Source of the DNA: a virus
Length of the DNA stretch: 64,000 nucleotides
Reading direction: 5' to 3' (one strand)
IMG/VR virus record: IMGVR_UViG_3300050821_003228
Location: 1-64,000 of that record
In this document: piece after piece, positions 7,434 through 7,815 of the stretch
Layout of the letters: each line of letters begins with the position of its first letter
Position numbering within the stretch: position 1 is the stretch's first letter
Position numbers and translations under genes: made by a program
Notes under the pieces: model-generated
What the model saw: only the letters and a program-made list of their open reading frames with translations
The model's database searches: none
Told to the model about the DNA's origin: nothing

Positions 7434-7471
7434 AAAAAAATGCCTCTCTTTCTGTTTCCAAGTAGAGAGGC
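7434..7471 (-). terminator. intrinsic terminator ending the tmRNA coding piece
   Basis: GCCTCTCT..AGAGAGGC hairpin followed by T7 on minus strand. Confidence 0.8.
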
Positions 7472-7815
7472 GAACTCAGTCCAACCGGAAGCTTACGCCC
7501 CTGCGGCTGCGGACATAGCCAATACATTCGTATTTGCTTTTATTGTTTATATGTTTATTTAACATCGTCCATACTACGATGACACGCAAGTTAAAAATTA
7601 TTCTGATCGCAATCGAAGCCGTTACACGCCCTCAATAAATGATAAACTCGGGTCCAGACCTACATACTAACCTCAGCTAATACAGTCTTAGAGAACATTT
7701 ATCATTTATGGTGGACGTGACCGGAGTCGAACCGGTTTCTTACAATAGAACAACTAACCTTCAACGTGCATACTCTTTTGGTGGACATGGTAAAGGTTCC
7801 CGACCAATACTCATT
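7440..7815 (-). ncRNA. ssrA: circularly permuted (two-piece) tmRNA
   Basis: On minus strand the T-arm/CACGTCCACCA 3' end (to 7709) precedes the GGGCGTG 5' end (7631); G3.U70; pk1; tag ORF 7537-7493 ANTNVLAMSAAAGA*; upstream boundary approximate. Confidence 0.9.

What the first reader, a model, noticed from the sequence alone, without database searches (positions are those of the whole stretch)
7440..7815. Circularly permuted two-piece tmRNA in a phage, with an unusual tag
Seen on the minus strand: acceptor piece ending GGTTCGACTCCGGTCACGTCCACCA, then a 77-nt intervening segment closed by ATAAATGATAAA/TTTATCATTTAT, then the GGGCGTG 5' end, helix 2, pk1, tag ANTNVLAMSAAAGA* and a terminator. 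Established: permuted tmRNAs are known from Alphaproteobacteria, some cyanobacteria and a betaproteobacterial lineage; ClpX reads C-terminal AA. Inference: possibly an independent permutation; the -GA end may weaken or redirect degradation so ribosomes are rescued without destroying the product. No smpB is visible in the window.
Basis: partly seen in the sequence, partly recalled or inferred. Interest (0 to 1): 0.8.

Follow-up and report, generated by a model that had tools for sequence, protein, structure and literature searches.

The report
Two-piece tmRNA gene in a phage
This 98-kb phage carries an intact gene for the ribosome-rescue RNA (tmRNA) in the swapped-order, two-piece form, as do all its sufficiently sequenced relatives; that form is already known from other phages, so this is a solid annotation with some unusual details, not a new kind of system.

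Summary
The phage is a complete 97.8-kb Tunturi_3-like genome; Tunturi_3 infects Acidobacteriota, which almost always have one-piece tmRNA. A permuted tmRNA lies downstream of the polymerase in every relative with about 2 kb or more of downstream sequence. Across 19 family members 97% of predicted pairs form, 17 of 23 pairs show compensatory changes, and G3.U70 never varies. No clade genome tested encodes SmpB.

(1) Independent permutation is neither shown nor excluded. The window reaches no cut-off for the alpha, beta or cyano models (no alpha hit, beta 35 bits, cyano 30), but relatives pass the alpha cut-off and the family shares a terminal hairpin motif with the alpha consensus. (2) The -GA end is unique to this phage: 12 of 19 family tags end -AA, and one base separates GGG from GCG. 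Its effect is untested.

Two-piece phage tmRNAs are published (Melnitz, pelagiphages), and this scan has noted many on other DNA. Verdict: a new member of a known kind.

The parts
8230..8258 (-). Candidate sigma-70-type promoter (TTGACA-17-TATGAT with TG) between the polymerase gene and the tmRNA
   Evidence: Consensus scan, 11 of 12 matches. Whether it drives the tmRNA is an inference. Two relatives have strong-looking promoters directly upstream of the acceptor piece: TTGACA-17-TACAAT in L009 and a TTGACA-containing candidate in L016.
7779..7789 (-). Upstream near-copy of the acceptor 3' end (CATGTCCACCA) in the leader
   Evidence: Read. It can pair with GGGCGTG through G.U pairs, which misled my first script. 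No T-arm precedes it. Its meaning is unknown.
7709..7769 (-). Acceptor piece (minimum extent; 5' end not mapped, and ARAGORN extends it to 7801): 5' strands of P2, T-arm, 3' strand of the acceptor stem, ACCA
   Evidence: RF04321 alignment, ARAGORN, covariation.
7720..7736 (-). T-arm ACCGG/TTCGACT/CCGGT with a canonical T-loop
   Evidence: the T-stem is 100% paired in 19 sequences and all 5 pairs show compensatory changes.
7709..7719 (-). 3' strand of the acceptor stem (CACGTCC) plus ACCA; predicted mature 3' end at 7709
   Evidence: the stem is 100% paired, U70 is invariant, and there are 11 distinct stem combinations.
7632..7708 (-). 77-nt intervening segment, predicted to be removed; its flanks extend the acceptor stem in the precursor
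   Evidence: Precursor fold. Spacer length ranges from 3 to 154 nt in the family. It holds no ORF of note (by eye only a 5-codon ATG frame).
7434..7631 (-). Coding piece: GGGCGTG, D-loop analogue, P2 3' strands, PK1, tag frame, P5, terminal hairpin, U-run (3' end not mapped)
7625..7631 (-). 5' strand of the acceptor stem GGGCGTG with G3 (alanine identity pair G3.U70); predicted RNase P site 5' of 7631
   Evidence: the pair at this position is UG in 19 of 19 sequences.
7582..7612 (-). 3' strands of helix P2 (P2a 7612-7606, P2b 7586-7582), pairing with 7746-7740 and 7769-7765 of the acceptor piece
   Evidence: Cofold, duplex z -4.8. P2b is 100% paired and P2a 86.8% paired across the family.
7549..7581 (-). 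Predicted pseudoknot PK1: stem 1 CATCGT/ACGATG (7581-7576 / 7568-7563); stem 2 GTATG/CATAT (7574-7570 / 7553-7549)
   Evidence: Stem 1 is modelled by RF04321 without mismatches. Stem 2 is by inspection only and is not supported by covariation.
7493..7537 (-). Tag reading frame GCA...GGG GCG TAA = ANTNVLAMSAAAGA*
   Evidence: ARAGORN, script, end of the RF04321 model.
7479..7514 (-). Helix P5 with the stop codon in its loop (GGGGC-GTAA-GCTTC); the Gly codon GGG lies in the stem
   Evidence: Cofold. Single-sequence prediction, not tested by covariation.
7434..7471 (-). Terminal hairpin GCCTCTCT / ACTTGGAAACAGAA / AGAGAGGC, then A and U7 (probable intrinsic terminator)
   Evidence: The loop motif is conserved with at least 9 different covarying stems in the family. 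The same motif is in the RF01849 consensus, and a related hairpin is in RF01850. The terminator scan missed it because the loop exceeds 8 nt.

Best explanation
This is a functional ssrA gene of the two-piece (circularly permuted) kind, carried by a Tunturi_3-like phage as a conserved, syntenic part of its replication-gene region. Shown: the gene order, a complete tRNA-like domain with the alanine identity pair, a long inter-piece helix P2, an open tag frame with its stop in a hairpin loop, and conservation with compensatory changes across a phage family. Inferred: one precursor is made. Host RNase P cuts 5' of G7631, and the 77-nt spacer is trimmed back to CCA at 7709. The two RNAs stay paired through the acceptor stem and P2. 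Host AlaRS charges the RNA and host SmpB delivers it, since no clade genome tested encodes SmpB. On ribosomes stalled on broken mRNA during infection it adds (A)ANTNVLAMSAAAGA and releases the ribosome. The likely benefit is keeping ribosomes available while host and phage nucleases generate non-stop mRNAs. The evolutionary origin of the family (descent from the proteobacterial two-piece forms, or a separate permutation) is not settled; I lean 65:35 to shared descent.
For: Detection: (65.1 bits, cut-off 47). Genome: complete, 97,817 bp with terminal repeats. Polymerase 42%, terminase 53% and portal 64.5% identical to Tunturiibacter phage Tunturi_3, the portal matching no other named phage. Clade-wide: RF04321 hits downstream of polA in Tunturi_3, L008, L009-12, L013, L016-17, L018, L020 and L024. 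L019's copy is at the other end of its contig. None was found near polA in 60 more distant polymerase relatives. Structure: 97.1% of 414 cells pair, against 33-45% when partners are slid. 17 of 23 pairs have changes on both sides, 0/500 shuffles reach this, and G3.U70 is UG in 19/19. Window P2 duplex z -4.8. Coding: every family member has one frame ending in Ala, with 10-43 codons. No SmpB in the window's genome or five relatives. Precedent: phage two-piece tmRNAs are reported, including one whose type differs from its host's (PMC9004378).
Against: There is no expression or end-mapping data (no RNA run was listed). PK1 stem 2 and P5 rest on one sequence. No convincing promoter lies directly upstream of the acceptor piece. 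The host is unknown, and the phage's 40% G+C is well below Tunturi_3's 51% (PMC11924767). The tag's -GA end departs from the -AA recognised by E. coli ClpX, so the proteolysis half of the classic mechanism may not apply. The window's RNA falls below threshold for all three lineage-specific models.
Confidence: 0.8

Rival explanations
1. Independent (fourth) permutation: the phage family's two-piece gene arose from a one-piece tmRNA separately from the alpha-, beta- and cyanobacterial events.
For: The window has no alpha-model hit, 35.4 bits for beta (cut-off 84), and 30.4 bits for cyano covering the tRNA-like domain only. No family member reaches the beta or cyano cut-off. The generic model outscores the specific ones in all but one member, the opposite of what PMC11915505 reports for database members. 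Known hosts of the clade (Acidobacteriota) carry one-piece tmRNA: 1589 standard against 5 permuted genomes.
Against: Five family members pass the alpha cut-off, two of them over the full model (L099 85.5 bits, L097 58.3). The terminal hairpin loop GGCAACAGAA is identical to the alpha consensus in L020, L097 and L099, and the window matches 12/14. Three members have the alpha-style T-loop GGCNGNA. A 23-nt PK1 block of the family was found only in permuted genes, never in a one-piece gene, in the viral and metagenome collections.
Confidence: 0.25
2. The tag is tuned: the -GA end (and the -VMA/-VLA/-AMA ends of relatives) lets the phage rescue ribosomes while slowing or redirecting degradation of the tagged products.
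For: 7 of 19 family tags do not end in -AA (and hand reading). Changing the last three residues of the E. coli tag changes degradation rate (PMC12013620).
Against: -GA occurs only in this phage, and its closest tag (L020, ATTKPLAMAAAA) ends -AA. One base separates GGG from GCG. The Gly codon sits in the predicted P5 stem, so RNA structure may explain it. The protease specificity of the unknown host is unknown. The phage's ClpP-family protein is not established as a ClpP.
Confidence: 0.2
3. Decoy: the RNA competes for host SmpB, AlaRS or ribosomes to shut down host trans-translation, and tagging is irrelevant. The CDS-less tRNA-like form of mycobacteriophage DS6A, which inhibits E. coli tmRNA, is the precedent (PMC11915505).
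For: No phage SmpB, so the RNA must draw on the host's pool.
Against: A complete messenger-like domain with resume context, an open frame ending in Ala and a stop codon is kept in all 19 family members despite very different tag sequences.
Confidence: 0.07
4. Relic: a decaying pickup from a host, or an attachment-site remnant without function.
For: Phages that integrate into ssrA carry fragments of it (general knowledge; also noted in PMC9004378).
Against: Both halves are present and covary with each other. The position is conserved across phages whose polymerases are only 34-49% identical. No integrase appeared among the neighbouring ORFs scanned against Pfam; the six ORFs nearest the tmRNA apart from the polymerase had no Pfam match.
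Confidence: 0.03

Closest known systems
Permuted (two-piece) tmRNA, Rfam RF04321 tmRNA_permuted (PMC11915505)
   Same: Gene order acceptor piece, spacer, coding piece. Full-length match above the gathering score. tRNA-like domain, P2, first PK1 stem, tag frame.
   Different: Nothing that defines the family. The 5' and 3' terminal regions are outside that model.
Alphaproteobacterial two-piece tmRNA (Rfam RF01849; Caulobacter type, Keiler et al. 2000, from my own knowledge)
   Same: Terminal hairpin with loop ACYUGGMAACAGAA preceded by GGUUCG (window 12/14 to the consensus). Five relatives pass the model's cut-off.
   Different: The window has no RF01849 hit at all. Its T-loop is the canonical UUCGACU, not GGCNGUA. 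Its D-loop analogue is GGCUUCGA, not AGGAUCGA. Its known relatives infect Acidobacteriota, not Alphaproteobacteria.
Betaproteobacterial two-piece tmRNA (Rfam RF01850)
   Same: It is the best lineage-specific model for the window (35.4 bits over the full model). Canonical T-loop. A terminal hairpin at the same place.
   Different: Far below the cut-off of 84, and no family member reaches it. Its loop motif CCUUGuuACcaAA matches the window at only 8/13.
Phage-encoded two-piece tmRNAs of marine myophages (OM43 phage Melnitz, pelagimyophages, cyanophages; PMC9004378)
   Same: A phage carries a complete permuted ssrA near early or replication genes. In Melnitz the type differs from the host's own tmRNA.
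   Different: No detectable nucleotide similarity. No glutamine riboswitch was found. Different phage group (Tunturi_3-like). That paper found 50 of 53 two-piece phage tmRNAs in marine or aquatic phages.
Unannotated tmRNAs of Tunturiibacter phages Tunturi_3 and Tunturi_4 (PP885686, PP885687; PMC11924767)
   Same: Same phage group. Tunturi_3 has the gene in the same place, downstream of polA. Canonical T-loop. Terminal loop CGUAACAGAA in Tunturi_3.
   Different: Tags are longer and end -MLAA and -AVAA. Spacers are 25 and 154 nt. Tunturi_4's copy lies elsewhere in the genome. The paper does not mention tmRNA (0 occurrences), and Tunturi_3's GenBank record has no feature at the site.

Membership tests
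Permuted tmRNA (RF04321) | Covariance-model score at or above the gathering score (47 bits) over the full model | tested here: met
   65.1 bits, model 1-213 of 213.
Permuted tmRNA (RF04321) | Gene order: 3' half of the tRNA-like domain ending CCA lies upstream of the 5' half, which starts at G1 | tested here: met
   ACCA ends at 7709 and GGGCGTG starts at 7631 on the same strand.
Permuted tmRNA (RF04321) | 7-bp acceptor stem formed between the two pieces, with G3.U70 | tested here: met
   100% paired in 19 sequences, 11 distinct combinations, UG in 19/19 at position 3:70.
Permuted tmRNA (RF04321) | Tag reading frame with resume codon and stop codon | tested here: met
   GCA at 7537 to TAA at 7493, 14 codons.
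Permuted tmRNA (RF04321) | Pseudoknot PK1 between P2 and the resume codon | tested here: inconclusive
   Stem 1 fits the model. Stem 2 is by inspection only. The window's PK1 sequence is unlike its relatives', so covariation could not be used.
Permuted tmRNA (RF04321) | Precursor processed into two RNAs that stay paired | not testable with these tools
   No RNA run was listed.
Permuted tmRNA (RF04321) | Alanylation and SmpB-dependent trans-translation | not testable with these tools
   Only the identity pair G3.U70 and the absence of a phage smpB could be shown.
Alpha-type two-piece tmRNA (RF01849) | Score at or above 50 bits | tested here: not met
   No hit at the locus. Met by relatives L008, L016, L094, L097 and L099.
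Alpha-type two-piece tmRNA (RF01849) | T-loop GGCNGUA with D-loop analogue AGGAUCGA (as in the model consensus) | tested here: not met
   The window has UUCGACU and GGCUUCGA.
Alpha-type two-piece tmRNA (RF01849) | Terminal hairpin with loop ACCuGGCAACAGAA at the 3' end of the coding piece | tested here: met
   The window has ACTTGGAAACAGAA in an 8-bp hairpin. A related hairpin also exists in the beta consensus, so this feature is not exclusive.
Beta-type two-piece tmRNA (RF01850) | Score at or above 84 bits | tested here: not met
   35.4 bits.
Cyano-type two-piece tmRNA (RF01851) | Score at or above 70 bits | tested here: not met
   30.4 bits, tRNA-like domain only.

The most novel reading that the evidence does not exclude
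Tunturi_3-like soil phages carry their own lineage of two-piece tmRNA, either a fourth permutation or a recombinant. Its tRNA-like domain has been switched between an alpha-style and a canonical form to fit the SmpB and AlaRS of hosts that have one-piece tmRNA. Its tag ends (-GA, -MA, -LA) have drifted away from -AA because the phage needs ribosome release, not proteolysis.
Probability: 0.15. Interest if true: 0.55.

Novelty: new member of a known kind. Interest (0 to 1): 0.3.

Why it matters
It adds a conserved, unannotated translation-rescue gene to the only cultured phage group of soil Acidobacteriota (Tunturi_3 and Tunturi_4). That gives a tractable system (Tunturi_3 with its host) for asking what a phage gains from its own tmRNA when it must borrow the host's SmpB. 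For tmRNA curation, it shows a phage family that the generic permuted model finds but the three lineage-specific models and ARAGORN often miss. It may also explain the scattered 'permuted' entries typed as beta in Acidobacteriota genomes. It does not change what is known about how tmRNA works.

Tried and rejected
- blastn of the tmRNA and of relative L099 against named phages: no match.
- Polymerase as a single query in the viral collection: nothing. An alignment query worked.
- Polymerase alignment in cellular genomes: only two distant MAG hits, no host clue.
- Relatives cannot be drawn for a virus record.
- RNA runs for 6500-9500: none was listed, so no end mapping was possible.
- Primary two-piece papers (PMC516066, PMC16621): not held.
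- Motif shared by the window and L020 at the coding-piece start: found only L020's own contig.
- cmscan on the window's coding piece alone: no lineage-specific hit shown. Clan competition hid these scores until I scored single families with the genome search.
- My interim conclusion 'alpha lineage' (after) was withdrawn. The beta consensus showed a related hairpin and the window showed no alpha hit.
- The first P2 script picked the upstream CATGTCCACCA as the acceptor end and gave a false z of +0.8 for the window; corrected.
- Caulobacter phage phiCbK as a real alpha-type control: only weak hits of 21 bits.
- attP remnant and relic readings: rejected on covariation and synteny.

Full report
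OBSERVATION. The minus strand of 7434-7801 holds a circularly permuted tmRNA gene exactly as described. ARAGORN reports tmRNA* at 7402-7801 with tag ANTNVLAMSAAAGA*. Rfam's tmRNA_permuted model (RF04321) matches 7493-7769 end to end at 65.1 bits (gathering score 47), with E 2.7e-10 for the window. Reading the sequence gives the following layout:
- The acceptor piece ends ACCA at 7709.
- A 77-nt spacer runs 7708-7632, and its flanks extend the acceptor stem.
- The coding piece starts GGGCGTG at 7631.
- The resume codon GCA is at 7537 and the stop TAA at 7495-7493, in the loop of a predicted P5.
- An 8-bp hairpin lies at 7471-7442, followed by U7.

WHAT GENOME. The window is part of a complete 97,817-bp virus record with direct terminal repeats, and 27 tRNA genes lie in the window. 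Its family-A polymerase (8344-10836, directly upstream of the tmRNA on the same strand) is 42% identical to that of Tunturiibacter phage Tunturi_3 and 36% to Tunturi_4. The terminase is 53% and the portal 64.5% identical to Tunturi_3, and the portal matches no other named phage. Both Tunturi isolates infect Acidobacteriota (PMC11924767). The window's own host is unknown, and its G+C of about 40% is lower than Tunturi_3's 51%.

A CLADE-WIDE, SYNTENIC GENE. Both Tunturi phages have RF04321 hits above threshold. In Tunturi_3 the hit lies just downstream of polA, in a stretch with no annotated feature, and the paper does not mention tmRNA. Of 17 viral contigs with a polymerase 34-49% identical, every one with about 2 kb or more of sequence downstream has a permuted tmRNA there: L008, L009-12, L013, L016-17, L018, L020 and L024. 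L019 (about 1.8 kb downstream) shows none, but its contig carries the gene at its other end (L093). The remaining contigs end within about 1.2 kb of the gene. None of 60 more distant polymerase relatives has a tmRNA within 5 kb. A 23-nt block from PK1 of one subtype found further members in the viral and metagenome collections. All of these were permuted and sat in tRNA-rich, phage-like contexts; none was a one-piece gene.

STRUCTURE AND CODING ARE UNDER SELECTION. I projected the window's helices P1, T-arm, P2a and P2b onto a 19-sequence alignment.
- 97.1% of 414 cells form standard pairs, against 33-45% when the partners are slid.
- 17 of 23 pairs carry changes on both sides, and none of 500 shuffles reaches any measure.
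- The acceptor stem and P2b, both formed between the two pieces, are 100% paired, and the pair at 3:70 is G.U in all 19.
- The family has 11 distinct acceptor-stem combinations.
- The window's own P2 duplex is -31.1 kcal/mol against -16.4+-3.0 for shuffles.

Each family member has one frame of 10-43 codons ending in Ala. PK1 stem 2 and P5 in the window rest on one sequence only.

PARTNERS. No SmpB domain is encoded in the window's complete genome or in five relatives, three of which are complete or nearly so. The RNA must therefore use the host's SmpB, AlaRS, RNase P and EF-Tu (inference). The ClpP-family ORF at 49137-49937 scores best against NCBI's 'head maturation protease, ClpP-related' model (83 bits, cut-off 120) and 24-72 bits against true ClpP models with cut-offs of 228-361. 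It cannot be taken as a tag-degrading ClpP.

LINEAGE. I changed my mind here, and the question stays open. The alpha consensus (RF01849) ends with a hairpin whose loop, ACCuGGCAACAGAA, is the motif I had found conserved in the family's terminal hairpin (window ACTTGGAAACAGAA, with at least nine different covarying stems). L099 and L097 fit the alpha model over its full length, at 85.5 and 58.3 bits against a cut-off of 50. That suggested alpha descent. Two controls weaken it. The beta consensus has a hairpin in the same place with a related loop. Scored without clan competition, the window has no alpha hit at all, 35.4 bits for beta (cut-off 84) and 30.4 for cyano (cut-off 70, tRNA-like domain only).

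Across 12 family records none reaches the beta or cyano cut-off. Three of the 12 pass alpha (five in all, with L097 and L099), and these five include the three with an alpha-style T-loop (GGCNGNA). The generic model beats the specific ones in all but L099. Members sharing the identical PK1 block can have either kind of tRNA-like domain. The family is therefore a coherent phage group with mixed alpha-like and beta-like features, and the window's RNA belongs to none of the three lineage-specific Rfam families. Shared descent with the proteobacterial forms seems somewhat more likely than a fourth permutation, because of the shared break point, the terminal hairpin and the alpha-passing relatives. 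A tree with bacterial sequences, which I could not assemble, is needed. In the tmRNA database Acidobacteriota have 1589 standard and 5 'permuted (beta-best)' genes. The latter may be this phage family (untested).

THE TAG. By my count 12 of 19 unique family tags end -AA. Seven end in a single Ala after another residue: -VMA three times, -VLA twice, -AMA once, and the window's -AGA (and hand reading for four members). The window is the only one with Gly next to the end. Its most similar tag, L020's ATTKPLAMAAAA, is canonical. GGG differs from GCG by one base and lies in the predicted P5 stem. Changes in the last three residues of the E. coli tag alter the degradation rate (PMC12013620), so a weaker degron is plausible. 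It is untested, and the protease specificity of the unknown host is unknown too.

WHAT IS KNOWN. Two-piece tmRNAs in phages are published. PMC9004378 counted 53 unique ones among 18,146 phage genomes, 50 from marine or aquatic phages, and described Melnitz, whose tmRNA type differs from its host's. Huge phages carry tmRNAs and sometimes SmpB (PMC7162821). The tmRNA database lists 79 phage sequences (PMC11915505). This scan's notebook also holds many notes on permuted phage tmRNAs in other genomes, none similar in sequence to this one. The new points are modest: a soil phage group of Acidobacteriota with a conserved, syntenic, unannotated two-piece tmRNA; a family that escapes the lineage-specific models; two kinds of tRNA-like domain within it; and frequent non-AA tag ends.

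VERDICT. The independent-permutation idea is open (0.25) and the tag-tuning idea is speculative (0.2). It is a new member of a known kind, with interest 0.3.

Noticed in passing
window 7779-7789 (-): A near-copy of the acceptor 3' end (CATGTCCACCA against CACGTCCACCA) lies 70 nt upstream in the leader. It can also pair with GGGCGTG through G.U pairs, and no T-arm precedes it. Relatives keep a CACC(C/A)A(A)AG motif at this place (L024, L008, Tunturi_4).
   Followed up: partly
L008, L016, L099 against the window, L020, L024, L093, L094, L107, Tunturi_3/4: The family has two kinds of tRNA-like domain: T-loop GGCNGNA in L008, L016 and L099 (with an altered D-loop analogue, AGGAUCGA in L099), or the canonical UUCGANU with GGYUUCGA. 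Both kinds occur even among members that share an identical 23-nt PK1 block. Both cultured Acidobacteriota phages have the canonical kind.
   Followed up: partly
L108 226-347; L018 8591-8812: L108 has only 3 nt between ACCA and G1 of the coding piece, so its precursor acceptor stem would be closed by a 7-nt loop. L018's acceptor piece ends ACCC, so its CCA is not fully encoded.
   Followed up: no
L005 1079-1153 (Tunturi_3 record, downstream of its tmRNA): ARAGORN calls a tRNA with a four-base anticodon (gaaa), and Rfam's tRNA model scores it 54.6 bits. This is probably the 'unknown' tRNA of the Tunturi paper and a possible frameshift-reading tRNA.
   Followed up: no
L008, L013, L016, L018, L095, L097, L099, L100, L104, L106, Tunturi_3; L009 8118-8612: ARAGORN missed the permuted tmRNA in eleven family members that RF04321 finds. 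In L009 it placed the tag in the wrong spot (GKADEWIFMGSVGG). The frame anchored on the conserved resume context gives VTESVSHSRVRFSVRKSVVAAQLLAA.
   Followed up: partly
window 7493-7537 against tRNA genes at 57495, 50341, 6150, 45185, 58695: Several tag codons match the anticodons of the phage's own tRNAs exactly: ACG/Thr-CGU, GUA/Val-UAC, UUG/Leu-CAA, AAU/Asn-GUU, AUG/Met-CAU. ARAGORN found no tRNA-Ala in the window, although half the tag is Ala.
   Followed up: no
window 49137-49937 (+): A ClpP-family ORF lies far from the head genes, inside the tRNA-rich region. The whole-genome search noted one in-frame TAG within the 273-aa open frame around the match.
   Followed up: partly
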